From the NCBI GenBank assembly GCA_965250285.1, contig OZ252299.1:2080001-2144000 (forward strand): a DNA stretch of 64,000 bases, in the 5' to 3' direction. The notes under the pieces are model-generated. The model worked only from the letters and a program-made list of their open reading frames with translations. It had not been told where the DNA came from and did no database searches. The translations under genes were made by a program, and so were the position numbers. Source of the stretch: Myxococcota bacterium (GTDB lineage Bacteria > Myxococcota_A > UBA9160 > UBA4427). Positions 6,914-43,058 of the stretch are shown one piece after another (position 1 is the first letter of the stretch; each line of letters begins with the position of its first letter).

Positions 6914-7978
6914 CTACTCGGGGTACTCGACCTTGGCCGTCGGCGACTTCAAGACGCCCTGGCACGTCAGCACCCAGCCCTGCTCGATCTGCTTCGCGTC
7001 GACGCCGCCATCGTTGTGCAGCATCTCGACGTCGCCTTCCTTGACCAGCGCCATGCAGCAGCCGCAGTAGCCGTCCTCGCACGCAAAGGGCGGTTCGAGG
7101 CCGACGCGGCGCGCCGCGTGCAGGATCGTCTCTCCGTCCTGCAGCGTCACCTCGTGGGTCGCGCCGTCGAGCTGGAGCGTGACCGTCGGGCCGCCGCCCG
7201 TCGCGGGCACGCCGACCTCGACCTCGGCGACGGGCTCGAACTCGTCCGGCGACTCGAAGCGCTCGATGTGGAACTGCTCTCGCGCAACCCCCATGTGCTC
7301 GAGCGTCGATTCGACGATGTCCATGAAGGGACCCGGACCACACACGTAGAAGTCGGCGCCGGTCTGATCACCGACCTGTCCGCGCACGAAGTCGCTGTCG
7401 GCGAAGCCGTCGCGGTCGTCGAGGCGGTGCACCACCTCGAGCCGGCCACCATGCTTCGACTGCAACGCATCGAGCTCGGCCTTGAAGATGATCGACCGCT
7501 CGTCGCGGTTCGCGTACACCAGCTTCACGCTGCGCTCGGTCGTGGCCAGCGCCGTCTTGACGATCGAGATGACCGGCGTGATCCCGCTGCCCCCCGCGAA
7601 GAGCACGATGGGCGTCGCGCGGTCCTGCAGCACGAACACACCCGCCGGCTTCATCACCTCGAGGGTCGTGCCGGCCTGCACGTTGTCATTGAACCAGTTG
7701 GAGGCCCGGCCCTCGACGACGCGCTTGATCGTGACCTTGTGCACACCATCGGTGATCGGCGAGCTCGCAAGCGAGTAGCACCGCACCAGACGCTGCCCGG
7801 CGACCTCGACGCGGAACGTCAGGAACTGCCCGGCCTGATACGCGAACGTATCGGCGAGCGACTCGGGCACGTCGATCACCACCGACCGGGCGTCGTGGGT
7901 CTCATCGATCACCTCGCGCACGAGGAGGTCGTAGTAGGGGCCGTGGGGCTCGACGCCGCCATCCGCGCTGGCGCTCAT
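6914..7978 (-). CDS. Ferredoxin-NAD(P) reductase with C-terminal 2Fe-2S domain (KshB/PaaE-like oxygenase reductase)
   Basis: RCYSLASS, AGGSGITP, YVCGPGPFM, C-terminal ACEDGYCGCC...LTCQ. Confidence 0.88.
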   Translation of the reverse strand: MSASADGGVEPHGPYYDLLVREVIDETHDARSVVIDVPESLADTFAYQAGQFLTFRVEVAGQRLVRCYSLASSPITDGVHKVTIKRVVEGRASNWFNDNVQAGTTLEVMKPAGVFVLQDRATPIVLFAGGSGITPVISIVKTALATTERSVKLVYANRDERSIIFKAELDALQSKHGGRLEVVHRLDDRDGFADSDFVRGQVGDQTGADFYVCGPGPFMDIVESTLEHMGVAREQFHIERFESPDEFEPVAEVEVGVPATGGGPTVTLQLDGATHEVTLQDGETILHAARRVGLEPPFACEDGYCGCCMALVKEGDVEMLHNDGGVDAKQIEQGWVLTCQGVLKSPTAKVEYPE

Positions 7979-11101: not shown

Positions 11102-12154
11102 TCAGGGCCGCACGGCGTAGAAGGCGTTCATCGGGTTGGGCACGTCGAGCCGCTCGAACCCACCGAACCCCGCCTCGCGGCAGAACTGCTCGGCCTTCGC
11201 CGGCCCCCAGGCGGCGCCCAGCCCCTCGCCCCCGTGCGCCAGCGAGACCGTCATGCAGTGAAGCGTGCTCATCGCGTAGAGCAGCGCACCACCCGGGTTG
11301 ACGTTGCCTTCGAGCGCCGGCGCCACGTCGGGCTCGACCATGAAGAAGAGACCGTCGTCGCGCAGCACCTCGCGAATCCGCGCGAGCACGCCCTTCGGGT
11401 CGACGAGATCGTGGACGACGTCGAACGCCGTCACGAGGTCGAAGCCCGGGTCGACGGGCAGCGCCTCGCCGCCGGCGTGCTCGAAGTGCGCGTTGTCGAG
11501 CCCTTCGGCCGCCGCCGCGGCGCGGGCAGCTTCGATCGACCGCTTCGACACGTCGAACCCGACGATCTCCGATCGTGGATACGCGCGCGCGAGCGTCAAC
11601 ACGGCCGTGCCGGCCCCGCACCCCACGTCGGCGACCCGCAGGCCCGACTCGAGTCGCTCGGCGAGGCCCGGCACCGCCGCCAGCCAACGCCGCGTCAGCA
11701 GCAGCCGCATCCCGGGCGAATTCGCCCGCGAGATCCCCTGCACCATGAAGTCACCGTACTCGTCGTAGGGGACACCCCCGCCTTCGTGGCAAGCGGCCGA
11801 CACGCCCGGCACCGCGCGGTACAGCCCCTGCAGAATCTGGGTCCAGCCCCCCATGAAGTAGGGGCTCGATTCGTCGGCCAGCACGGCGGCGACCTCGTCG
11901 CGCAGCTCGAGCGTGGCCGCGTCGGCGTCCCACTCGAGCAGCCCGGCGGCGACCAGCGTGGCGGTGACCTCTTCGACGTAGCGAGGCTCGAGGCCGCTTC
12001 GGTCGGCGAGCGTGGCGACGCCGATCGGGCCCGCGCCCTGCAGATGCCCCAGCAGCCCCGTGCGATCGACCACGCCCAGCACGGCCATCACGGCGGCACT
12101 GCTCGTCATGTCGAAGAGGCGACCCATCGTGGCCTTGGCGACGTCGCGATCCAT
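11102..12154 (-). CDS. Class I SAM-dependent methyltransferase with N-terminal wHTH (Rv2258c-like)
   Basis: VADVGCGAG, FDVVHD, STLHCMTVSLA. Confidence 0.88.
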   Translation of the reverse strand: MDRDVAKATMGRLFDMTSSAAVMAVLGVVDRTGLLGHLQGAGPIGVATLADRSGLEPRYVEEVTATLVAAGLLEWDADAATLELRDEVAAVLADESSPYFMGGWTQILQGLYRAVPGVSAACHEGGGVPYDEYGDFMVQGISRANSPGMRLLLTRRWLAAVPGLAERLESGLRVADVGCGAGTAVLTLARAYPRSEIVGFDVSKRSIEAARAAAAAEGLDNAHFEHAGGEALPVDPGFDLVTAFDVVHDLVDPKGVLARIREVLRDDGLFFMVEPDVAPALEGNVNPGGALLYAMSTLHCMTVSLAHGGEGLGAAWGPAKAEQFCREAGFGGFERLDVPNPMNAFYAVRP

Positions 12155-16104: not shown

Positions 16105-16548
16105 GGGGTGGATCGGCCCGAATGTCGATTCACCAGTCAATCTCGAAAAAGTTTCTCTTTGATTCCAGCCACTTGGAGGCTCTCCTTGACAGGGGACCCT
16201 CAGAACGCGCATACCATTCGAGACAACTTCGATGGGCCACGATCGGCGGCATGCCTCATTTGGCGTCCCCACTCGGGTCCGAAGACCGCATGACCGGAGC
16301 CGGCGGCATGCTCGCGCAGCGCGAGCCCGCCGGTTTTCCTCCATGGCGTTCCCGCCACTTCGATCGACACGCCCGCTGACGAGCAGGCCTTCGTTCGACC
16401 TTCAGGAGGCCGGCCTCGAGCACGCCCCGCCCGGGCGTGACCCGCGACGCTGCGGCTCGCCCACGAGGCGATCGATGGCGATGCAGGGCGCGGATCGACC
16501 GACGCCGTCGATGTCGACCCGGGCGCGGGGAGGAAGCAGAGCGCAGCT

Positions 16549-16719
16549 CCAAGCGGAGAGCGGAGAGCAGAGAGCGGAGAGCAGAGACGAGAGCGGAGCG
16601 GGCAGAGAGCAGAGCCCAGCGGCAGAAGAGCCGAACAAAGAGCCGAACAAAGAGCCGAACAAAGAGCCAAACGAAGAGACGAGCAAAGAGCCGAACAAAG
16701 AGACGAGGAACGAGACGCA
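16549..16719 (+). repeat. T-free purine-rich tract with 7-bp (GCRGAGA) and 12-bp (AAGAGCCGAACA) tandem repeats
   Basis: No T on the + strand from 16549 to 16719; seven 12-bp units at 16626-16709. Confidence 0.9.
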
Positions 16720-16811
16720 TTCGAGCAGCACGGGCATCCCGGCTGCGCACCGACCGGACCCGCGCGGGCTTCCGGCCCGAGAGAACGAAAGAACCCACGG
16801 AGGAACAGCCA

Positions 16812-17933
16812 GTGGCCGCAGAGGCAATGCACGCCGAGCAGACGGACATCCCCCCCACGTCCGGAGACTTCAGCCTCGCCCCACACGAGGTCGCCAAAGG
16901 CGAGCGCGCCGCGAGCGCCTACCTCAGCTCCCTCAAGCCCGGTGAGCCCCAGCGCGTCGCCGAGGAGGCGCTCGACACCCTGGCTGCCGTCGTCAGCGGT
17001 GGCATCTGCGACGCGAGCTCGTTCCCCTGGCACCAGATCCAGCCCTATCACGGCGCCCTCGCCTTCACGATCCTCAAGGAGAAGGGCGCCCCGGCGCACA
17101 TCGAGGCCATGCGCTGCCGCGCCGACGACACCCGCAAGTACCAGCCCGTCCCTGAGAGCTACCCGCCCAAGCAGGTCGCCCGCATCAAGAGCTCCTTCAA
17201 GGGCATCATGACCGAGTGCCAGAACCTCGGCTTCATCAGCGACGAGGAGCGCGACCTCACGATCACGGCGTCGACATCGTCGACGTCCGCCAAGCCCACC
17301 GAAGCCCGTGCAAAGGCGGGCAAGAAGGCCCAGACGGACCGCGAGCTGGCGCGCACCGAGGTCCTGGCGCTCCAGGCCGCCTGCCGGCTCGACGACTCCC
17401 CGGCCGGCAACCGCGACGGCCTGATGATCTCGCTCGCATACCACGGCGCGCTCAAGACCGTCGACCTGATCGGTCTCACCGTCGATCACATCCAGTTCGA
17501 CGCGCGCACCCAGAAGTCGGGCGTGCTGTTCAAGCCGGCACAGGCGAAGCGCTCACGGCGCGTCCCGTTCAGCAACGAAGAGATGATCGCGCTCGAAGAC
17601 TGGCTGATGGTGCGCGGCAACGAGCCGGGCCCCCTCTTCTGCTCACTCGGTCGGGGCGACAAGGTCGAGATCAAGCGCATGACCGCCGCGGCGGTCCGCG
17701 AGATCTGCGACCAGCGCGCAGGTGAGGCCGGCGTCCAGCCCTTCTCGCCGAACGACCTGGCCAAGAGCAGCCCGCTCGCCGCCAAGAAGCCGCGCAAGAA
17801 GGCCGCCGACGCCGAGTCGACCGAGGAAGACGAGCTGCCCGAGAACGAGAGCGTGCTCTTCGGCGACGAGCCCGAGGTGGACGACTCGGCCCGACGCATC
17901 TCGTTCCCGTACCACGTGCGCCTCGGTCAATAG
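16812..17933 (+). CDS. Tyrosine recombinase/integrase-like protein with degenerate catalytic site
   Basis: AYLSSL..FPWHQI; PAGNRDGLMISLAYHGALK; LEDWLMVRGNEPGPLF; AGVQPFSPNDLAKS; start GTG 16812 after GGAGG or ATG 16827. Confidence 0.8.
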   Translation: MAAEAMHAEQTDIPPTSGDFSLAPHEVAKGERAASAYLSSLKPGEPQRVAEEALDTLAAVVSGGICDASSFPWHQIQPYHGALAFTILKEKGAPAHIEAMRCRADDTRKYQPVPESYPPKQVARIKSSFKGIMTECQNLGFISDEERDLTITASTSSTSAKPTEARAKAGKKAQTDRELARTEVLALQAACRLDDSPAGNRDGLMISLAYHGALKTVDLIGLTVDHIQFDARTQKSGVLFKPAQAKRSRRVPFSNEEMIALEDWLMVRGNEPGPLFCSLGRGDKVEIKRMTAAAVREICDQRAGEAGVQPFSPNDLAKSSPLAAKKPRKKAADAESTEEDELPENESVLFGDEPEVDDSARRISFPYHVRLGQ

Positions 17934-21847: not shown

Positions 21848-22915
21848 ATGGATCTACCGCCCGAAGTGCGCGCGGCCCTCGATGGCCTGCTGGCTGCGAC
21901 GCCGCGCAAGGCGCTGGTCGAGATCGCCGAACGCCAATCGAAGATCTACCGGGAGCGCGCCGACCACGGGTGCCGACAGCTCGTCGTACAGACCGAAGCC
22001 GACGCCTTCGCGTACGCGGCGTGGCGCCTCCCCGCGACCTTCGGCGCTGCAGCGGTCGCGCTCGCCGAACTCAGCCGGCTCGCGCCCGATTTCGAGCCGC
22101 GGTCCCACCTCGATCTAGGGGCCGGACCGGGCACCGCCCTGCTCGCGGCCGCGGCTGTCCTCGGCGCCGCCGAACGCAGGTCGGCCATCGAAGGGGCCCG
22201 CGTCTTTCGCGAGGCCGGCGCGCGGCTCTTCGACGCCCTCGACGATGCGGCGCCCCCGCCCACATGGCACGCCGGCGACCTCACGCGCGCCGATGCCCTC
22301 GACGCGATCGGACCCGCCGCCGATGCCCGCTTCGACCTGGTCACGCTCTGCTACGTGAGCGGCGAGCTCGACGCCGACCGCCGTGGCTCCCTGATCGACG
22401 ACGCCTGGGCGCGCACCGAGGGCTGCTTCGTCATGGTCGAGCCCGGGACGACGGCCGGGTACCGGCGGATCCTCGACGCGCGCGCGCGTCTGCTCGACGC
22501 CGGTGCGCATCTCGTCGGCCCCTGCCCCCACACCGCAGCCTGCCCGCTCCGCGCACCCGATTGGTGCCACTTCGCCGTGCGCGTGGCGCGCTCGCGCATG
22601 CATCGCCAGGTCAAGGGCGCCGACCTCGGCTACGAAGACGAGAAGCTCGCGTGGCTGGCCGTCTCGCGGAAGCCGGTGACGGCCGCGCCGGCCCGACTGC
22701 TCCGACCGTCGCACGTCACGAAGGCACACGTCGAGATCGATGTCTGTGACGCGAGCGGCGCGGCGCAACGCCGCACCGTCGCGCGGCGAACGAAGGCCGC
22801 GTGGAAGCAGGCCAAGAAGCTGCGCTGGGGCGACGCCGTCCCCACCGAAGTGCTCGACGCGGCCCAGACCGACGCTCGACCCGACCCGCCGACGCCGCAT
22901 TCGCGCCGCGGATGA
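21848..22915 (+). CDS. Rsm22/METTL17-family methyltransferase-like protein
   Basis: YAAWRLPATF, LDLGAGPGT, VEPGT, PCPH..CP...WCHF, EDEK. Confidence 0.88.
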   Translation: MDLPPEVRAALDGLLAATPRKALVEIAERQSKIYRERADHGCRQLVVQTEADAFAYAAWRLPATFGAAAVALAELSRLAPDFEPRSHLDLGAGPGTALLAAAAVLGAAERRSAIEGARVFREAGARLFDALDDAAPPPTWHAGDLTRADALDAIGPAADARFDLVTLCYVSGELDADRRGSLIDDAWARTEGCFVMVEPGTTAGYRRILDARARLLDAGAHLVGPCPHTAACPLRAPDWCHFAVRVARSRMHRQVKGADLGYEDEKLAWLAVSRKPVTAAPARLLRPSHVTKAHVEIDVCDASGAAQRRTVARRTKAAWKQAKKLRWGDAVPTEVLDAAQTDARPDPPTPHSRRG

Positions 22916-31752: not shown

Positions 31753-31789
31753 GCGACCGATCGAAGTGCGTCCGACGGTGGCCGGACGG

Positions 31790-31863
31790 TGAGCCCGCTG
31801 GGATTCGAACCCAGGACCGATGGATTAAAAGTCCACTGCTCTAACCAACTGAGCTACGGGCCC
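31790..31863 (-). tRNA. tRNA-Lys (anticodon UUU), CCA not fully encoded
   Basis: GGGCCCGTAGCTCAGTTGGTTAGAGCAGTGGACTTTTAATCCATCGGTCCTGGGTTCGAATCCCAGCGGGCTCA followed by CCG. Confidence 0.96.
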
Positions 31864-35726: not shown

Positions 35727-36217
35727 GGCACGCCTCCGGGTCTTGCTCGCATCGGCGCCCACGCGGCGCGGCGGGTCGGCTCGGGTGAACTCGCAGAGCC
35801 CCCCCCCGGCGTCGGCGATGGCTCGAACCGAAGCTACCCCGCCGCTGCAACCGGCGGACCTTGCGCCACGCGACCGAGGCCGACGCTCACCGTGCGACTC
35901 GACGCGCGGCTGTTTCGCAGCGATCGAATTCGTCGTCAGCGTGTCCCGGTCGGGCGGCGCACGGTCGCGTCGTCCCGATTCGAACGCAGTCTCACGCAGG
36001 GCACCGGGTCGACAACCCTACAAACGGCCGTTGCATGCGACGCGGGGGCCCCGCCTGATCGCGGCCCGCATCGCTGAGACGCTCGACGCGCTGACTCTCG
36101 ACGCCTTAGAGTCTGATTGTTTTCACCCACGCCGACTTTCTCTGATCCGATGCTCCATGCGATCTTCCGCCGCGCGCATTCGCAAAGAATTCGGTCCCCA
36201 CGTGGAAGGAAGCCGCC

Positions 36218-37261
36218 TTGTCCCAGCCCGCCGAGCACGGTCCCAGCCAGAACCGCACCGCCCCGCGCGCCAACAGCGGCGGCGACATGCGGACGGCCCT
36301 CGACGACTACTACGTGATGAAGGAGCTCGACGCCGATCAGCGGCCCGACGAGAAGGTCGAGGCGCAGCCGAATCTCGTCTCGCGCTACTACGACGTCGTC
36401 ACCCAGTTCTACGAGTACGCCTGGGGGCAGAGCTTCCACTTCTCGCCGCGCCAACCGGGCGAGAACCTCAAGACCTCACAGCGTCGCCAGGAGGAAGGGG
36501 TCGGCGAGCTCCTGCGCCTGAAGCCCGGCATGAAGGTCGCCGACATCGGCTGCGGCGTCGGTGGGCCGCTGGTGACGATCGGCAAGGCGACGGGAGCGAG
36601 CATCACGGGGCTCAACTTCAACGAGCACCAGATTGCACGCGGCCAGCAGATGGTGCGCAAGGCCGGGCTCGACGGCACGTGCGGCTTCCTGCTCGCGAAC
36701 TTCATGGACGTCCCGCTCGAAGACGGGCATTTCGACGCGATCTACTCGTTCGAAGCGATCTGCCACGCGCCCGATACCGGGCTGCTCTTCAAGGAGCTGT
36801 TCCGGCTGCTCAAGCCCGGCGGCGAGATCGCTGCGGTCGACTGGTGCCTGACCGAGCAGTTCGACGCGAGCAACCCCAAGCACGTCGACATTCGCGACCG
36901 CATCGAGTTCGCGAACGCGACGCCCGACCTGCTCACGCCCCAGCAGCAGCTCGACACGATGAAGGGCGCCGGGTTCGAGATCCTCTCCGCAACCGACCAG
37001 GCGGCGCAGAGCCATGCCGACACGCCCTGGTACATGGCGCTGCAGGGCCGCGACGTGTCGCTGGCCTCGCTGGCTCGTATCCCGGCCGGTCGAAGCTTCA
37101 CTTCGGGCGTGACATCGTTGCTCGAGAAGCTGCGCATCGCCCCGCCCGGCACGAGCGAGGCAGCGCAGCTGCTCAACGTCGCTGCCGACTCGCTCGTCGA
37201 AGGCGGCCAGCTCGGCCTCTTCACGCCGAGCTTCCTGGTCCATGCGCGAAAGCCCGAGTAG
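36218..37261 (+). CDS. smt: Sterol 24-C-methyltransferase (ERG6/SMT family)
   Basis: SMT region I YYDVVTQFYEYAWGQSFHF, II DIGCGVGGP, III FEAICHAP, IV LKPGG; Sterol_MT_C-like tail LVEGGQLGLFTP; TTG start after GGAAGGA (alternative ATG 36287). Confidence 0.9.
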   Translation: MSQPAEHGPSQNRTAPRANSGGDMRTALDDYYVMKELDADQRPDEKVEAQPNLVSRYYDVVTQFYEYAWGQSFHFSPRQPGENLKTSQRRQEEGVGELLRLKPGMKVADIGCGVGGPLVTIGKATGASITGLNFNEHQIARGQQMVRKAGLDGTCGFLLANFMDVPLEDGHFDAIYSFEAICHAPDTGLLFKELFRLLKPGGEIAAVDWCLTEQFDASNPKHVDIRDRIEFANATPDLLTPQQQLDTMKGAGFEILSATDQAAQSHADTPWYMALQGRDVSLASLARIPAGRSFTSGVTSLLEKLRIAPPGTSEAAQLLNVAADSLVEGGQLGLFTPSFLVHARKPE

Positions 37262-37273
37262 CGGAGAACCGGC

Positions 37274-38374
37274 TTGACCGAGGCCCGAGAGACCGACCGC
37301 GGCGCGGCACGCGACCACGATGTCCTGATCGTCGGCGGCGGCCCCGCCGGATCGACGTGTGCGCGGTTCGCAGTGCAGCACGGGCTCGACGTCGCCGTCG
37401 TCGAGCGCACGGGCATTCGACCGCCGAAGCACACGAGCGCTGGCATCTTCGATCACACCTGGAAGGCGCTCGAACTCTCGCCCGACGACTACCCGCACGC
37501 CATGCGGGCGCCGCACGCGTTCGAGTTCACGACGCTCAAGGATCGAGAGCAGCTCCCCGACGTGGTGCAGATCGTCGCGCCGAAGCTCAAGCGCCACGCG
37601 TACTTCCCCAACCGGGACGAGTTCGACATCTGGCTGCTCGAGCAGGCGCAGAAGTCGGGGGCGCTGGTCGTCCACGACGAGGTGGTGCGTCCGCACGACA
37701 TCGAACACGTGGAGAGCGACGCGGGGCACCGGTATCACGTGCGTGTCGGTCAAGAGGTGCACACCGCGCGCGTGCTGGTCGGCGCAGCGGGCACGCGTTG
37801 TCCGGTCTATCGCAAGTTCTTCGAGACCAGCGCGGGATGGCCCGGCCAGACCATGCTGCTGACCGAGGTCGAGGCACCCGAGAGCGAGTATCGGGGCCCG
37901 GCCTACGCGAGCTACTTCGGCTTCGCGAGCCCGGACGTGTTCGCCTGGACGTACGTCGTCGGCGATGGTCGCGTCCACATCGGCACGGCCGCGATTTCGA
38001 CCGAGAAGTCGACCAAGAAGGACATGCGCTTCGACGAGTTCCTCGACTTCCTGAAGGACGAGGACTACGTCGACCCCGACTTCGAGCCCAAGGATCATCA
38101 CACGAGCGGCGGCTCGATTCGCATGTTCGCGAAGTCCCCGATGGGTGTGCTGGACGGCACCTGCCATGTGATCGGCGATGCGGCCGGGCTACTCCAGTGC
38201 GACGCGTACAACGGCATCACGAACGCGATCCTCTCGGGCCGGCTGTGCGCCGACGCGATCGCGAAGGGCCAGCGTGAGCCGAAGCTGCGCAAGAAGCTGA
38301 ACCCGTACCTGTTCCAGGACGTGCTCCGCGACATGCTGAGCGGTCCGCTTCCGTTCCTGCGAAGATTCAAGTAG
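37274..38374 (+). CDS. Geranylgeranyl-reductase-family FAD-dependent oxidoreductase
   Basis: DVLIVGGGPAGS, RDEFDIWL..A..SGA, IGDAAG...GITNAILSG. Confidence 0.82.
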   Translation: MTEARETDRGAARDHDVLIVGGGPAGSTCARFAVQHGLDVAVVERTGIRPPKHTSAGIFDHTWKALELSPDDYPHAMRAPHAFEFTTLKDREQLPDVVQIVAPKLKRHAYFPNRDEFDIWLLEQAQKSGALVVHDEVVRPHDIEHVESDAGHRYHVRVGQEVHTARVLVGAAGTRCPVYRKFFETSAGWPGQTMLLTEVEAPESEYRGPAYASYFGFASPDVFAWTYVVGDGRVHIGTAAISTEKSTKKDMRFDEFLDFLKDEDYVDPDFEPKDHHTSGGSIRMFAKSPMGVLDGTCHVIGDAAGLLQCDAYNGITNAILSGRLCADAIAKGQREPKLRKKLNPYLFQDVLRDMLSGPLPFLRRFK

Positions 38375-38410
38375 CGCCGGCCCCTCACACGGAGGTCCCT
38401 GCCCCCCGCC

Positions 38411-39607
38411 ATGCTCGACAAGCTCCTGCCTCGTCCGCTCAAGAAGCGCCGATCGAAGAAGCGCACGTCGGAAGCCGTCCGTCTCGACAGCTACCCGCCG
38501 CCGTACCCCGACGGCTGGTATCGACTGATGAACACCGACGACCTGGCGCCGGGCGAGGCCACGTACGTCGAGGCGCTCGGTCGCGAGCTGGTCGTTTGGC
38601 GAAGCGAAGACGGCGCCCGGCTCTCGGCCATGACCGCTTTCTGCCCCCATGTCGGGGCCAACCTCGCGCACGGCCAGGTCAGAGGCGATCGCATCGTCTG
38701 CCCGTTCCACGCGTGGGAGCTCACGGGCGACGGCCGCGTCGCCTGCGTGCCCTACAGCGACTCGACCCCGGGCCGCGCCCTCAACGAGAGCTTCCCCGTC
38801 GAGGACGTCCACGGCCAGGTCTTCGTCTATCACCGAGGCGGCGAGCGGCAGTCGAGCAGCGAAGCGCCGCCCTACCCGCCGCCCCGCATCCCCGACGTCG
38901 ACGCCGGCGACTTCGTGTACCGCGGCCAGTACGACGCCGGGCGCGTGCACATGCACATCATCGAGTTCGCCGAGAACAGCGTCGACTTTGCGCACTTCGA
39001 TCCGATCCACAGCCAGCTGCGGGTGCCGTGGACGAACGTCCCGATCCCCGGCTTCGAGATCGAACACATCGCCGGCTGGGAGCTCGACGAGGAGCGCCCG
39101 CACGTCAGCTACTTTCTCGACGAGGCCCGCGTCCACGCGTTCGGGCGGCCGCTCGAGAAGGCGAGCGCCAGCGCCGTTGCCACCTTCACCGGCCCGGGCA
39201 GCGTCGTGAACTTCCGCTTCGACATCCCCGACCTCGGCAAGATGGAGCTCATGCAGACGCACCTGCCTGTGGGGCCGCTCGAGCAGCAGGTGAACTTCCG
39301 CTGGTTCTCCGATCCGAAGATTCCGCGACCCGTTTCGTGGTACATCGTCGGCAACTGGATCAGTCAGTGGAAGCAGGACATCGACATCTGGGAGAACAAG
39401 GTCTACCTCGATCGCCCGATGCTCTCGAAGGACGACGGCCCGGTGCAGCGCATGCGGCGCTGGTACAAACAGTTCTACCCCGAGACGTCCCCTGTCGACC
39501 CGATGCCGGTGCGCCGCATCGGCCGCGAAGCCGATCGCGACGGAGCGCCGCAGCCCGCGAGCGACGCCGCCACCGCCGCCGCGCCCATCTCGGCGAGAAA
39601 GAGCTGA
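38411..39607 (+). CDS. Rieske non-heme iron sterol oxygenase/desaturase (Neverland/DAF-36/KshA family)
   Basis: PPPYPDGWY; Rieske CPH...CPFH; ENSVDFAHFDPIH; QDIDIWENK...RRWYKQFY. Confidence 0.85.
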   Translation: MLDKLLPRPLKKRRSKKRTSEAVRLDSYPPPYPDGWYRLMNTDDLAPGEATYVEALGRELVVWRSEDGARLSAMTAFCPHVGANLAHGQVRGDRIVCPFHAWELTGDGRVACVPYSDSTPGRALNESFPVEDVHGQVFVYHRGGERQSSSEAPPYPPPRIPDVDAGDFVYRGQYDAGRVHMHIIEFAENSVDFAHFDPIHSQLRVPWTNVPIPGFEIEHIAGWELDEERPHVSYFLDEARVHAFGRPLEKASASAVATFTGPGSVVNFRFDIPDLGKMELMQTHLPVGPLEQQVNFRWFSDPKIPRPVSWYIVGNWISQWKQDIDIWENKVYLDRPMLSKDDGPVQRMRRWYKQFYPETSPVDPMPVRRIGREADRDGAPQPASDAATAAAPISARKS

Positions 39608-39609
39608 AC

Positions 39610-41049
39610 GTGGCCGCCACGACCGTTTCCGATTTCACCCAGCCGGCTTCGGCCTCTCGTCACCCGTGGCTTCGCCCCTGGGAGCGTCTGGTCGTGAAGC
39701 TCCGCAAGGGCCTCGGCCTCGCGCTGACGATCAACTTTCTGATTTTCTGGGCGGTGCCGATCTACGTGATGGGCGAGTCGTTCAACCGCTTTCTCCACTA
39801 CCTCTTGCGCCCAATCTACAACCTCGTCGACCGCAGCCCGCGCATTCGCACCTTCGCGCGCGAGCACGTCTACCGAAAAGAGGTCCACACCGACTACTTC
39901 GCGACGGCGCTCTTCTTCACCGCCGGCGCGGTGATCGCCCTGACGACGCTCTTCACCGTCCAGATCACGACGGGCGGACTGCCCTGGTGGCTGGTCGCGG
40001 CGTACTTCTTCTCGTGGGTCGGCTTCGGCGGTCGCGGCATGGGCGCGGCCTACACGTTCGCCCACCGCGAGGGCCACCTCGCCGGCGGCCGGATGTACAA
40101 GCCGTGGATCCGCGACCACATCGGCAATTTCTTCGAGAACTGGGGGGGCGTCTTCTACGGCGGGGTCCCGTACAACTTCTCGACGTCGCACAATCTGCTG
40201 CACCACCGCCTGAATGCCGGCAAGGGCGACCCCTTCTACATGTGGGATTTCGACCGAACCGACTTCTGGGGGCTGATGCTCTACCAATGGCGGATCTTCG
40301 TCTACATGACAGGCTGGAGCAGCCTGAAGGAGTTCCGCAAGCAACGCGACGTCAAGCGAATGGACGAGGCCTACCGCACGCTGCGCAAGGGCGCGCTGAT
40401 CTTCTGGGTGGCGACACCGTCGGTGATCCTCACGCTGCTGCTCGCCACGGGCAGCTCGCTGGGCGCAGCGCTGCTCTTCCTGTTCTTCGTGTGGTTCCAG
40501 CCGCTCTGCGCGATGTCGTTCTTTCTCGCGACGCTCAACATCGGCTTCCATGGCCTGATCGAGTTCGACGAGAACGGGCGCCACATCGAGTGCATCGCGG
40601 GCAGCACGATCCTCGGCGGCAAGGACGACTCGTTCGGCGAAGACGACCACATGGCCCATCACTACTTTGGCAACGTCGAGCACCGCGACCTGCCCGCGCA
40701 CCAGCACGACCAGGAGTCGCTCTGGGCCCGACACCACGCCACCGTCTTCAAGGAGCTCTCGATCATCGAGCTCGGCATCTTCATCCACTTCGGGCTGTGG
40801 GACATGCTGCTCGACAAGCACTACGTCGACTTTGCGGGCGATCTCAGCCGCGACGAGCTCAAGGCGCTGCTTCAAGCACGCGCCGAGCGCACCGAAATGG
40901 ACTACGAGGACTACGAATTCAGGTATCTACCGAACCTGCGCTCGACCGCACGTGAGCTCGTGCGCCGAGGCGTCTGCGAGACCGAGAACAAGGCCTACAT
41001 CTACCAGGCGCACCACAACGTGCAGTTCGATCTCAGCGTACCGAGCTGA
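39610..41049 (+). CDS. Membrane-bound His-box desaturase (fatty acid/sterol desaturase superfamily)
   Basis: HREGH, HNLLHH, HMAHH boxes with multiple TM segments; GTG 2 nt after the Rieske stop. Confidence 0.85.
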   Translation: MAATTVSDFTQPASASRHPWLRPWERLVVKLRKGLGLALTINFLIFWAVPIYVMGESFNRFLHYLLRPIYNLVDRSPRIRTFAREHVYRKEVHTDYFATALFFTAGAVIALTTLFTVQITTGGLPWWLVAAYFFSWVGFGGRGMGAAYTFAHREGHLAGGRMYKPWIRDHIGNFFENWGGVFYGGVPYNFSTSHNLLHHRLNAGKGDPFYMWDFDRTDFWGLMLYQWRIFVYMTGWSSLKEFRKQRDVKRMDEAYRTLRKGALIFWVATPSVILTLLLATGSSLGAALLFLFFVWFQPLCAMSFFLATLNIGFHGLIEFDENGRHIECIAGSTILGGKDDSFGEDDHMAHHYFGNVEHRDLPAHQHDQESLWARHHATVFKELSIIELGIFIHFGLWDMLLDKHYVDFAGDLSRDELKALLQARAERTEMDYEDYEFRYLPNLRSTARELVRRGVCETENKAYIYQAHHNVQFDLSVPS

Positions 41050-41097: not shown

Positions 41098-42762
41098 CTA
41101 GGGCACGACCACGACGCCGTTTGCGCCGGGCGACTGCCCGGCTCCGCCCGACAGGTCGGTCTCGCCCCGAGATGCCGTTGCGGCAGCGATCGTGAGGTCT
41201 CCACCATCGCCACCGGCGGAGGCGAGCCGCTCGGGATCGCTGTTGCCACCGCTGAGATCGATCGCCGATCGCACGACGACGCGGCCCGATGCCTCGATCT
41301 CGTCGCTGCCGGCGGCGATCATCAGGTCACCGGCGTTCGAGCCGATGCGCGCTCCGTCTCCCCCCGACGTCGTGACTCGGTCGAAGCCGAGCCAGCGGAT
41401 CGACTGGCCGGTGGAGCCGTGGTCGTTGCGGATCATCGCCGCCACGCTGCCGCCGACGCCACCACGCGCAGTCGTATCGGCCACTGCAGAACCCCCGCCC
41501 ACGTAGACGCCGCCCGATACGGTGATGTCGCCGGCGCGCGGATCACCGGGGTCGACCAGCTCGTTGGTCTCGAAGTCGACGCGACCGCCACGGCCACCCT
41601 GAGCCGTCGGGCTCGCCGTCGAGCGGCCGCCATCCGCCCACAGGGCCCCACGGCTTCGAATCTCTCCGCCATGCGCCTCGAACGAGATGCGCCCGCCCTC
41701 GCCGCCGGGCCCGCCGGGCGAGGGGCCGCCGCGGCTCGTCAGCGACGCATCGTTCAGGATGCTGCCCCCGAGCAGCGCTCGCATCCACACGCGGCCACCG
41801 ATCCCGCCGAGATCGATCCCGTTGCCGCCCGAAGCGTCGATCGGGGCTGCGTTCAGGATCTGCTGATCGGCCACGAGCGTGACATCGGCCCCGGCTCCCC
41901 CGGTGCCCGAGGCCCCCGTACTCGCGCCGCCCCGAGCCCGGATCGCGCCGCGATTGCCGATCCAGCCCATCTCGTCGATCCCCTGGGCCGTCATCGTGAC
42001 GGCACCCGCGGCGCCGCCAGCGCCGCTCGACTGCGCGGCACCGTAGGACGAGATCGTGCCGAGGTTGATCAGCGCGCCGCCGGCCGTCAGATCGACGGCC
42101 CCACCCGCCTGACCCGGCTCGATGCCGTGCGCCTCGACGACGCCGTCGCCGATGTAGTTGCGCGCGGTGGTGATGCTGATCGATCCACGCTGGGTCGCAT
42201 CGACGTCGAGCACGGTGATCACGCCGTCGTTGATGACGTCTTGGCTGAAGACGAGCGCTGCGCCGGTGCCGACGTTGAGGGGCAGGGTCAGCGTGGCCCC
42301 ACGGACGACCTCGATGCCCGTCGCGATCGGGTCATCGGCATAGTTGGTATCGCCGTTCGAGATGCGAATCACCGTCTCGCCTTGCGGGATGTAGAGCGAC
42401 GTGTCGGGCAGCGTCTCACCCGGTGCGAGGATCCACAGCTCGAGATCCTCATCGATCACGATGCGAACCGGCCCGTACTCGGCCGCCGGGATCAAGAAGT
42501 CGAAGCCGGCGTCGGCGGCCCCGGAGTCGAGGATCTCGATGGCCGAGCCAGCGGTGCCGTCGGCGATCGTCACGTCGACGTTGCCGCCCATGGCACCGGC
42601 CTGCTCGATCTCGCCATTCGACCCGCTGCCGCCGCTCGTGTCGACGAGCACTTCAGTCACGCCGCCGCCGCCCTTGCAGCCGACGGCCGCGACCCAGACA
42701 GAGGTGAAGGCGACCGCGGCCAGGCGCGCCGCGCGCTGGCTCGTCGTGTGATTCCGGCCCAT
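41098..42762 (-). CDS. Gly-rich repetitive surface lipoprotein (beta-helix/adhesin-like)
   Basis: Lipobox AVGC; repeated GG(x)GGx(V/I) turns alternating with short beta strands. Confidence 0.7.
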   Translation of the reverse strand: MGRNHTTSQRAARLAAVAFTSVWVAAVGCKGGGGVTEVLVDTSGGSGSNGEIEQAGAMGGNVDVTIADGTAGSAIEILDSGAADAGFDFLIPAAEYGPVRIVIDEDLELWILAPGETLPDTSLYIPQGETVIRISNGDTNYADDPIATGIEVVRGATLTLPLNVGTGAALVFSQDVINDGVITVLDVDATQRGSISITTARNYIGDGVVEAHGIEPGQAGGAVDLTAGGALINLGTISSYGAAQSSGAGGAAGAVTMTAQGIDEMGWIGNRGAIRARGGASTGASGTGGAGADVTLVADQQILNAAPIDASGGNGIDLGGIGGRVWMRALLGGSILNDASLTSRGGPSPGGPGGEGGRISFEAHGGEIRSRGALWADGGRSTASPTAQGGRGGRVDFETNELVDPGDPRAGDITVSGGVYVGGGSAVADTTARGGVGGSVAAMIRNDHGSTGQSIRWLGFDRVTTSGGDGARIGSNAGDLMIAAGSDEIEASGRVVVRSAIDLSGGNSDPERLASAGGDGGDLTIAAATASRGETDLSGGAGQSPGANGVVVVP

Positions 42763-43058
42763 GGCCCCACTCCTCACGGCCATGGCGCGCGCATCGTCAC
42801 GCGCGGCCATGCCGGCCTCGCCCGGCGCTCATGCGCGCGGGGTCGGCGAAGTGGGGCCGCGGGCGGACCCGGGTCGGCCGGTAGCCGATCGCAGAGAGGC
42901 GCTCGCGGCCGGCGCACGCGCGCCGACGGCTTCTCATCGGCAGTCAGCGGGCGCGGCTGGAGACGCGGGCATCCGCGCCCCGCGCACCTGTACTCGAAAA
43001 TTCAAGCGCAGATGGAGGCCCATCGACGCGATGGGCAAGGCGCTGGGCCAATCGTGGC

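What the first reader, a model, noticed from the sequence alone, without database searches (positions are those of the whole stretch)
36218..41049. Four-gene bacterial sterol-tailoring operon that could make ergosterol-type (24-alkyl, Delta5,7,22) sterols
Seen: co-directional SMT, GGR-family flavin reductase, Neverland/KshA-family Rieske enzyme and His-box desaturase, with gaps of only 12, 36 and 2 nt. Established: SMTs methylate C24 of Delta24 sterols giving a 24(28)-methylene; GGR-family enzymes reduce isoprenoid C=C bonds; Neverland/DAF-36 are cholesterol 7-desaturases; ciliates use His-box enzymes, not CYP61, for sterol C22 desaturation. Inference: the four activities are exactly those needed to turn a desmosterol-like sterol into an ergosterol-like product, with a mosaic of enzymes largely non-orthologous to the fungal ones. 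No squalene epoxidase or oxidosqualene cyclase is in this window, so the substrate is made elsewhere or scavenged. If true it matters for reading 24-alkyl sterane biomarkers as eukaryotic.
Basis: partly seen in the sequence, partly recalled or inferred. Interest (0 to 1): 0.92.

Follow-up and report, generated by a model that had tools for sequence, protein, structure and literature searches.

The report
Bacterial four-gene sterol-remodelling operon
An uncultured bacterium with no detectable genes for building the sterol ring carries four tightly linked genes that likely rework sterols taken from outside into methylated, more unsaturated, ergosterol-like forms, and three of the four enzymes come from groups never tested on sterols.

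Summary
The four genes are real, co-directional, 12/36/2 nt apart, under purifying selection, and conserved in order in the genus. The 95%-complete genome has no detectable squalene epoxidase, cyclase or 9,10-seco catabolic genes, so the operon likely tailors scavenged sterols.

It joins two recurring modules: SMT + Neverland-like Rieske (noted eight times before by this scan, on other DNA) and GGR-like flavoprotein + His-box desaturase. The desaturase lies beside one of three unrelated flavoproteins in 13 of 22 bacterial loci: this GGR-like clade, a DHCR24 homologue, or a RetSat/CrtISO-like protein. Some are in cyclase clusters. This points to a side-chain reduce-then-desaturate (likely C22) step.

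Corrections: the flavoprotein is not the published reductase Bsr and lacks the GGR catalytic Cys. In three Nitrospirales genomes it occurs with no SMT found, so an ERG4-specific role is unsupported. The Rieske is not KshA, but Neverland orthology and ciliate-C22 family membership were not testable. Bacterial C24 alkylation is already published (Brown 2023), so the sterane argument adds little. An ergosterol-type product is about 30% likely. Interest 0.66.

The parts
36218..37261 (+). Sterol 24-C-methyltransferase homologue (SMT), 347 aa, soluble; region IV reads VDWC where 9 other bacterial SMTs aligned have YEWC
   Evidence: Sterol_MT_C 74 bits; 34-45% to other bacterial SMTs, 87% to G001; present in 3 of 41 genomes searched, own included
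37274..38374 (+). GGR-fold flavoprotein of a distinct clade (not Bsr); catalytic Cys replaced by Ser (HTSAG, residue 55), YxWxFP replaced by FAWTYV; likely sterol side-chain C=C reductase or isomerase
   Evidence: 52 proteins at 48% or more, then a drop to about 30%; 29 bits against a Bsr homologue; fold top hit 3OZ2; adjacent to the desaturase in other phyla
38411..39607 (+). Soluble Rieske non-heme-iron oxygenase of a bacterial clade separate from KshA and SdmA; Neverland-like, predicted sterol C7 desaturase
   Evidence: Tree and identities; 14 of 120 listed homologues auto-labelled cholesterol 7-dehydrogenase/desaturase, 0 labelled KshA; no transmembrane segment
39610..41049 (+). Membrane His-box di-iron enzyme (long-spaced FAD type with N-x3-H third motif); predicted sterol side-chain (C22) desaturase
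   Evidence: Motifs and hydropathy; AlphaFold pLDDT 89, AlkB-like fold; recurs in cyclase/SMT/DHCR24 clusters

Best explanation
The operon likely remodels sterols taken up from outside: the SMT would methylate C24, the flavoprotein likely saturates the resulting side-chain double bond, the membrane di-iron enzyme is predicted to add Delta22 and the Rieske enzyme Delta7, which would give 24-methyl Delta5,22 or Delta5,7,22 (brassicasterol/ergosterol-type) sterols. Shown: the genes, their linkage, purifying selection, the recurring partners, and the lack of detectable cyclase, epoxidase and seco-catabolism genes. Inferred: every substrate and reaction position. The SMT needs a Delta24(25) or Delta24(28) substrate such as desmosterol or 24-methylenecholesterol. 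C24 stereochemistry cannot be predicted. Electron donors for the Rieske and di-iron enzymes would come from elsewhere in the genome. My odds per step: all four act on sterols about 0.85; SMT methylates C24 0.85; flavoprotein reduces a side-chain C=C 0.55; C22 desaturation 0.55; C7 desaturation 0.55.
For: 1. No PF13243 or PF08491 match in a 95.4% complete, single-contig genome. KstD at most 25.5%, HsaA at most 27%, no HsaC hit.
2. Of 22 bacterial-looking desaturase loci (9, 13 of 25), 13 have one of three unrelated flavoprotein genes within two genes, never two at one locus. GGR-like clade in 8; FAD_binding_4 protein in 3 (L038, L052, L054; the L054 protein is 44% identical to the single hit in G388); RetSat/CrtISO-like in 2.
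3. L052 reads DHCR24-like, desaturase, SMT, SE/OSC, CYP51, ERG24. A published cluster has the same order, with one unassigned gene ID between DHCR24 and SMT (PMC10070321 Supplementary Data 1 sheet 5).
4. L130 has SdmA, ERG24, CYP51 and SE/OSC, then GGR-like + desaturase three genes on. De novo sterols already carry Delta24, so a further side-chain desaturation (C22) is the simplest reading.
5. The desaturase has the Asn-bearing third motif that PMC9485055 (section 5) reports for the C22/Delta3(E), SCD and AlkB families, and no Arg at the SCD Arg249-equivalent spacing.
6. SMT lies next to the Rieske clade in L031, L050 and 4 of 30 Polyangia loci.
7. Cyclase-less G225 holds SMT + Rieske, the desaturase and a DHCR24 homologue at three separate loci.
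8. 14 of 52 GGR-clade proteins share an exact longest-contig length with a listed desaturase, against 1 of 68 generic GGRs; indirect.
Against: 1. No enzyme of the flavoprotein, Rieske or desaturase clades has a test in print that my searches found.
2. The flavoprotein has Ser for the Cys that is essential in S. acidocaldarius GGR (PMC10821996 passage). Ser in 43 of 52 clade members, Cys in 1, 8 unscored; Cys in 67 of 68 generic relatives.
3. Three Nitrospirales genomes with the flavoprotein have no SMT and no Rieske-clade match (completeness not given); two have the full desaturase, L042 only a remnant.
4. The desaturase fold is closest to the hydroxylase AlkB. In L051 its pair sits against a carotenoid cluster.
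5. The Atlas could not separate KshA from cholesterol 7-desaturase clusters, both 0.97. A 46% Rieske homologue in G008 lies two genes from an HsaA-like gene scoring below cut-off.
6. E. salina has a 55% Rieske homologue, and the passages read report cholesterol, C24-unsaturated intermediates and unidentified hydroxysterols (PMC10202945).
7. 9 of 22 loci lack a flavoprotein partner, 3 of them for want of flank, and several loci are close kin.
8. G000 has two ERG4/ERG24-family genes elsewhere that could do the reduction.
Confidence: 0.4

Rival explanations
1. Still sterol tailoring, but with other chemistry: the Rieske and/or the AlkB-like enzyme hydroxylate, and the Cys-less flavoprotein is a double-bond isomerase. 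Products would be oxysterols or unusual side chains rather than ergosterol types.
For: Loss of the GGR Cys and YxWxFP. The best family of one alternative partner is carotenoid isomerase. AlkB-like fold. Unassigned hydroxysterols in E. salina, which has a 55% Rieske homologue. Divergent SMT region IV.
Against: The flavoprotein swaps places with a DHCR24 homologue, a family whose main known activity is C24 reduction. Auto-labels favour the 7-desaturase.
Confidence: 0.25
2. The flavoprotein reduces only Delta24(25), like DHCR24 or Bsr, and competes with the SMT. Products would be a mix of C27 Delta5,7,22 sterols (Tetrahymena-like) and unreduced 24-methylene C28 sterols.
For: Flavoprotein next to a cyclase cluster in Nitrospirales genomes with no SMT found. 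Bsr acts on desmosterol and zymosterol (PMC12004948).
Against: The gene directly follows the SMT in this operon and in L058. Competing with the first enzyme of its own operon is less economical (inference).
Confidence: 0.15
3. The desaturase makes Delta24(25) from C24-saturated sterols such as cholesterol to prime the SMT, the step still unassigned in Capsaspora.
For: A scavenger meets mostly C24-saturated sterols (general knowledge). PMC4967820 section 3.3 says no such enzyme is known.
Against: The desaturase also occurs in de novo clusters, where Delta24 is native, beside a C24 reductase homologue (L052, L054) or in a genome with no SMT found (L130).
Confidence: 0.08
4. The flavoprotein-desaturase pair works on a non-sterol lipid (carotenoid, acyl chain or sphingolipid) and only travels with sterol genes.
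For: L051 pair is convergent with crtB/crtI/crtY-like genes. The family relatives named in PMC9485055 include a sphingolipid acylamide Delta3(E) desaturase.
Against: Repeated, differently arranged placement beside SMT, DHCR24-like, Rieske and cyclase genes.
Confidence: 0.08
5. The Rieske is a catabolic 3-ketosteroid 9-alpha-hydroxylase and the locus feeds steroid degradation.
For: KshA_C domain; best PDB hits are KshA; a KshB-like reductase (36%) lies 28 kb away.
Against: 26-27% to three plasmid KshA proteins from catabolic-looking clusters, which are 43-59% identical to the Tsukamurella one; separate clade with 97% support; no KstD, HsaA or HsaC orthologue in G000. C. elegans Neverland is also 30% identical to KshA (PMC7609953 passage).
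Confidence: 0.04

Closest known systems
Bacterial sterol 24-C-methyltransferases and their clusters (Brown et al. 2023, PMC10070321; Kelly et al. 2022, PMC9531527)
   Same: Same SMT family and motifs. A tested SMT in a genome without other sterol genes is already reported (Chlamydiae MAG). One published cluster has the gene order in which homologues of this desaturase sit.
   Different: No cyclase here. The SMT is fused into one unit with three enzymes those papers do not assign: 0 hits for 'desaturase', 'Rieske' or 'geranylgeranyl' in the searchable supplements of Brown (one PDF unreadable).
Bsr, GGR-family bacterial sterol C-24 reductase (Lee and Welander 2025, PMC12004948)
   Same: GGR fold, sterol-cluster context, likely the same kind of job.
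   Different: Not orthologous: 29 bits, local alignment only, separate clade. Bsr keeps KTCG and YGWLFP; this clade has TSAG and FAWTYV.
Neverland/DAF-36/DES7 Rieske cholesterol 7-desaturases
   Same: Rieske and non-heme iron motifs as given in PMC7609953; about 30% to KshA; database auto-labels.
   Different: No transmembrane segment (that Neverland has one is recalled). Orthology untested, no bacterial member assayed in the papers found.
Tetrahymena Des22A/B and the C22-sterol/acylamide-Delta3(E) desaturase family (PMC9485055)
   Same: PF00487 long-spaced type, four motifs with Asn in the third, 5-6 hydrophobic segments, patchy protist and bacterial relatives.
   Different: Direct sequence comparison was not possible. 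The clade here is a separate, well-supported group of about 480-aa proteins with probable eukaryotic sisters; the distant relatives that could be named were a foraminiferan, a dinoflagellate, an amoeba and bacteria, no ciliate or fungus.
Capsaspora owczarzaki cholesterol-to-ergosterol conversion (PMC4967820)
   Same: The same four activities co-expressed on scavenged sterol.
   Different: Capsaspora uses a P450 C22 desaturase and ERG4; here the candidates are a His-box enzyme and a GGR-fold flavoprotein in a bacterial operon.

Membership tests
Sterol 24-C-methyltransferase (ERG6/SMT) | SAM domain plus Sterol_MT_C domain | tested here: met
   74 bits against cut-off 21.7
Sterol 24-C-methyltransferase (ERG6/SMT) | Conserved regions I-IV (consensus recalled; compared with 10 bacterial SMTs) | tested here: inconclusive
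   YEYAWGQSFHF, DIGCGVGGP and FEAICHAP present; region IV VDWC instead of YEWC
Sterol 24-C-methyltransferase (ERG6/SMT) | Methylates Delta24 sterols | not testable with these tools
   Needs an in vitro assay
Bsr (GGR-family sterol C-24 reductase) | Sequence orthology to Bsr | tested here: not met
   29.3 bits, 43-residue local match to the Bsr homologue in L128; separate clades
Bsr / canonical GGR | Active-site Cys (Cys47 equivalent) and YxWxFP | tested here: not met
   Ser in HTSAG and FAWTYV; features from PMC12004948 and PMC10821996
GGR superfamily fold | GxGxxG, RxxFD and GD motifs and the GGR fold | tested here: met
   Motifs; top Foldseek hit 3OZ2, E 3e-21; GG-red-SF below cut-off
KshA 3-ketosteroid 9-alpha-hydroxylase | Groups with KshA; catabolic context (KstD, HsaA-D) | tested here: not met
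   26-27% identity, separate clade, no KstD/HsaA/HsaC orthologues
SdmA 4-beta-methylsterol monooxygenase | NCBIfam NF052579 and clade | tested here: not met
   42.6 bits against cut-off 600; 22-24% identity, separate clade
Neverland/DAF-36 cholesterol 7-desaturase | CxHx16-17CxxH and E/Dx3Dx2Hx4H motifs | tested here: met
   also shared with KshA, so not diagnostic
Neverland/DAF-36 cholesterol 7-desaturase | Groups with animal and ciliate enzymes in a tree | not testable with these tools
   No eukaryotic sequence was returned among the listed hits; Atlas not discriminating
C22-sterol/acylamide-Delta3(E) desaturase family | Long-spaced His boxes with Asn in the third motif | tested here: met
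   H152, H194, N310-x3-H314, H347; also found in SCD and AlkB
C22-sterol/acylamide-Delta3(E) desaturase family | Homology and grouping with Des22A/B or the Fusarium enzyme | tested here: inconclusive
   Profile search gave 533 hits; 20 of the 150 listed were looked up and none was a ciliate or fungus. Nearest Atlas clusters are dominated by Haptophyta, Bacteroidota and Ascomycota, like the published family list; a lead only.
De novo bacterial sterol cluster (SE-OSC-CYP51-ERG24-SdmAB) | Squalene epoxidase and oxidosqualene cyclase in the genome | tested here: not met
   0 matches for either family; best SE/OSC and OSC tblastn: none at 1e-10

The most novel reading that the evidence does not exclude
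A bacterium turns scavenged Delta24 sterols into ergosterol or its 24-epimer with one operon, using the first bacterial sterol C22 desaturase, a bacterial C7 desaturase and a second, independently evolved, Cys-less GGR-fold sterol reductase; the same desaturase clade is the unassigned C22 step of bacterial de novo clusters and of protists that lack CYP710/CYP61.
Probability: 0.3. Interest if true: 0.86.

Novelty: new variant of a known kind. Interest (0 to 1): 0.66.

Why it matters
It names testable candidates for three sterol reactions with no bacterial enzyme in the papers found: C22 desaturation, C7 desaturation of an intact Delta5 sterol, and Delta24(28) reduction by a GGR-fold protein. 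Yeast erg5 and erg4 rescue would test two of them directly. It also proposes a function for an unannotated gene that recurs in de novo bacterial sterol clusters. If right, brassicasterol- and ergosterol-type sterols (used as algal and fungal markers; general knowledge) could be made or edited by bacteria, and bacteria could shift C27 to C28 ratios. For fossil steranes the gain is small: double bonds are lost, bacterial C24 alkylation is already published, and this organism appears not to make the ring system.

Tried and rejected
- Foldseek of the desaturase model against PDB: no match at E 0.001; only the wide VIA search found AlkB and SCD1.
- Desaturase in plasmids: none. In 401 sampled Polyangia-class genomes: only G225.
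- Careful tree of the desaturases did not finish; the tree used is FastTree. The flavoprotein tree is also FastTree, with long-branch warnings.
- Looking up 20 desaturase-family proteins gave no ciliate or fungal name.
- No RNA holder listed among sequencing runs, so expression is untested. Small-share marine, sediment and coral runs give no habitat; only X4 was laid, and it gave scattered short pieces of a relative.
- Promoter scan: 0 sites; terminators at chance level.
- The genome search for KstD (NF009478) returned nothing at 1e-30 although one G000 protein scores 6e-44, so I relied on tblastn.
- One search used an irrelevant family and was discarded.
- The two ERG4/ERG24-family genes of G000 could not be typed as ERG4, ERG24 or DHCR7.
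- L052, L054 and L050 accessions were not found in Brown's searchable supplements, so their SMTs are not known to be tested.
- The DAF-36/Neverland JBC paper is not held. The bioRxiv Neverland survey has no mention of bacteria.
- Bsr orthology, KshA and SdmA identity were tested and rejected.
Full report
Observation. The four ORFs are as described: 36218-37261, 37274-38374, 38411-39607 and 39610-41049, all on +, with gaps of 12, 36 and 2 nt and GC3 0.89-0.91 like the flanking genes. Families: Sterol_MT_C plus SAM domain; flavoprotein nearest GG-red-SF but under its cut-off; Rieske plus KshA_C; weak FA_desaturase. The same-genus genome G001 has the four genes in the same order at 86-87% identity, with dN/dS 0.15-0.18. 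In 225 genomes of the class, own included, the desaturase clade is in 3, the Rieske clade in 5 and the flavoprotein clade in 2; the SMT is in 3 of 41. The intact operon is therefore genus-restricted among those searched. The taxon is not given: a same-genus record is titled 'uncultured Spirochaetaceae' and a same-family one 'uncultured Myxococcales'. From recall this fits UBA9160 (Myxococcota_A); untested. Habitat is unknown.

Genome context. G000 (6.25 Mb, one contig, 95.4% complete) has no cyclase or squalene epoxidase match. It has two ERG4/ERG24-family genes, a P450 at 38% to a cluster CYP51 and a RetSat-like gene, all unlinked. With catabolic queries from plasmid records, KstD reaches 25.5%, HsaA 27%, HsaC gives no hit, and a KshB-like reductase (36%) lies at window 6917-7978. 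So the operon most likely edits sterols the cell did not build and does not degrade by the usual route.

SMT. It is a full-length family member, 34-45% identical to nine other bacterial SMTs, with VDWC for their YEWC. Bacterial SMTs are already shown to work in vitro, one from a genome lacking other sterol genes (PMC10070321; parts 1-3 of 7 and Supplementary Data 1 read).

Flavoprotein. The homologue search gave 52 proteins at 48% or more, then a drop to about 30%. The only tested GGR-family sterol enzyme found is Bsr, which reduces C24 of desmosterol and zymosterol and keeps the active-site Cys and YxWxFP (PMC12004948; parts 2-3 of 7, passages and supplement part 1 of 2 read). A Bsr homologue at coordinates listed in that supplement (L128:6443-7588, G388) aligns to the window protein over 43 residues at 29 bits and falls in another clade. 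The window clade has Ser at the Cys position in 43 of 52 members (1 Cys, 8 unscored), against Cys in 67 of 68 generic relatives. That Cys is reported essential in S. acidocaldarius GGR (PMC10821996 passages). The fold is GGR-like. It is therefore a separate GGR-derived enzyme whose chemistry may be reduction or isomerisation.

Rieske. It belongs to a bacterial clade (36 of 50 rows, support 97) apart from three KshA proteins, three SdmA proteins and its four in-genome paralogues; identity to KshA is 26-27%. C. elegans Neverland is likewise 30% identical to KshA (PMC7609953 passages). Of 120 listed homologues, 14 carry an automatic 'cholesterol 7-dehydrogenase/desaturase' label and none a KshA label; these are annotations, not tests. 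The Atlas scores both kinds equally. No eukaryotic sequence was available for a tree. The clade lies beside an SMT in L031, L050 and 4 of 30 Polyangia loci. The scan has noted this pair eight times in other genomes.

Desaturase. It has boxes HREGH, HNLLHH, NIGFH and HMAHH, six hydrophobic segments and an AlkB-like fold. The Tetrahymena C22 desaturases are long-spaced FAD-type enzymes with an Asn in the third motif, in one family with a fungal acylamide Delta3(E) desaturase (PMC9485055; passages, section 5 and part 1 of Table S2 read). The window protein has that Asn, but membership could not be shown. Its wider family is small, 533 hits in 1.84 billion proteins, and the bacterial clade sits among probable eukaryotic sequences.

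Neighbours of the desaturase. This is the strongest evidence. From 34 loci I set aside 12 that looked eukaryotic. Of the 22 left, 13 have a flavoprotein gene within two genes: the GGR-like clade in 8 (L034, L037, L039, L042, L046, L047, L049, L058), a DHCR24-like protein in 3 (L038, L052, L054) and a RetSat/CrtISO-like protein in 2 (L035, L051); never two at once. Nine have none, three of them for lack of flank. Several are kin (L034/L046/L058; L037/L039/L042), and in L042 the desaturase is a remnant. L052 and L054 are SE/OSC-SMT clusters. L052's order matches a published cluster in which one gene ID between DHCR24 and SMT is left unassigned; I did not see that gene's sequence. In L130 the GGR-like + desaturase pair flanks an SdmA-ERG24-CYP51-SE/OSC cluster, and no SMT or Rieske-clade gene was found in the three Nitrospirales genomes. 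SMT was found in 5 of 9 desaturase-bearing genomes. The swap with DHCR24 implies that the flavoprotein acts on the C24 double bond. The presence in de novo clusters, where Delta24 is native, makes C22 the simplest target for the desaturase. The SMT-less cases show the pair does not need a 24(28) methylene.

Mechanism. The operon reads as two recurring modules interleaved: SMT + Rieske and flavoprotein + desaturase. The likely route is Delta24 sterol, to 24-methylene sterol, to 24-methyl sterol, to Delta22, to Delta7. Capsaspora co-expresses the same four activities to make ergosterol from cholesterol (PMC4967820; passages and section 3.3 read). Each step beyond the SMT family assignment is inferred. 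I put the whole scheme at 0.4 and a true ergosterol-type Delta5,7,22 end product at 0.3. The main rivals are hydroxylation or isomerisation (0.25) and a Delta24(25)-only reductase (0.15).

Novelty. Ten literature searches (open-access library only) listed no paper on this operon, a bacterial sterol C22 desaturase or a tested bacterial Neverland homologue; most were judged from listings. Figures (Bsr alignment, Des22 alignment), one Brown PDF and bioRxiv supplements could not be seen and may bear on this. The scan's notes hold one earlier mention of a similar unassigned di-iron gene and none of this flavoprotein clade. Bacterial sterol side-chain alkylation and GGR-fold sterol reduction are known kinds; this is a new combination with new enzyme clades. 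Verdict: real, probably sterol-tailoring, chemistry untested; new variant of a known kind; interest 0.66.

Noticed in passing
window 6917-7978 (-): FAD/NAD/2Fe-2S reductase, 36% to a plasmid KshB; a possible electron donor for the Rieske enzyme, 28 kb from the operon.
   Followed up: partly
window 35808-35885 (-): ARAGORN calls a tRNA-Ala(TGC) 330 nt upstream of the operon, but Rfam does not support it; probably a false call or a degenerate tRNA.
   Followed up: partly
window 31788-31863 (-) and 16437-17930 (+): A true tRNA-Lys(TTT) and a phage-integrase-family gene; no link to the operon was examined.
   Followed up: no
window 41098-42810 (-): 570-aa Gly-rich protein with no Pfam family, convergent with the operon.
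   Followed up: no
G000:C1:4490155-4491438, 4857563-4858825, 5302757-5304097, 912461-914116: Two ERG4/ERG24-family reductases, a CYP51-like P450 and a RetSat/CrtISO-like gene (72% to the desaturase partner in L051) scattered in a cyclase-less genome; more sterol-editing capacity.
   Followed up: partly
L037:4550-6583 (-), L130:11308-15699: A GPP34-P450 fusion, an amine-oxidase-family flavoprotein and an unknown 244-aa gene lie between the cyclase and the GGR-like + desaturase pair in Nitrospirales MAGs.
   Followed up: no
L030:4412-10924: G010, same family as G000, has an ERG24-like, SdmA-like, CYP51-like and SMT cluster and a separate SMT + Rieske pair in L031.
   Followed up: partly
L041:7835-8618 and L042:8001-8186: The desaturase gene is in pieces in L041 and reduced to a C-terminal remnant in L042, while the L042 flavoprotein is intact.
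   Followed up: no
P0117, P0100, P0378, P0379, L057, L059, L064: Probable eukaryotic sequences at about 40-51% form the sister groups of the bacterial desaturase clade; candidates for a non-P450 C22 desaturase in protists. Taxa not determined.
   Followed up: partly
window 11105-12154 (-), 21848-22912 (+): A second methyltransferase and an Rsm22-family methyltransferase; no link to sterols seen.
   Followed up: no
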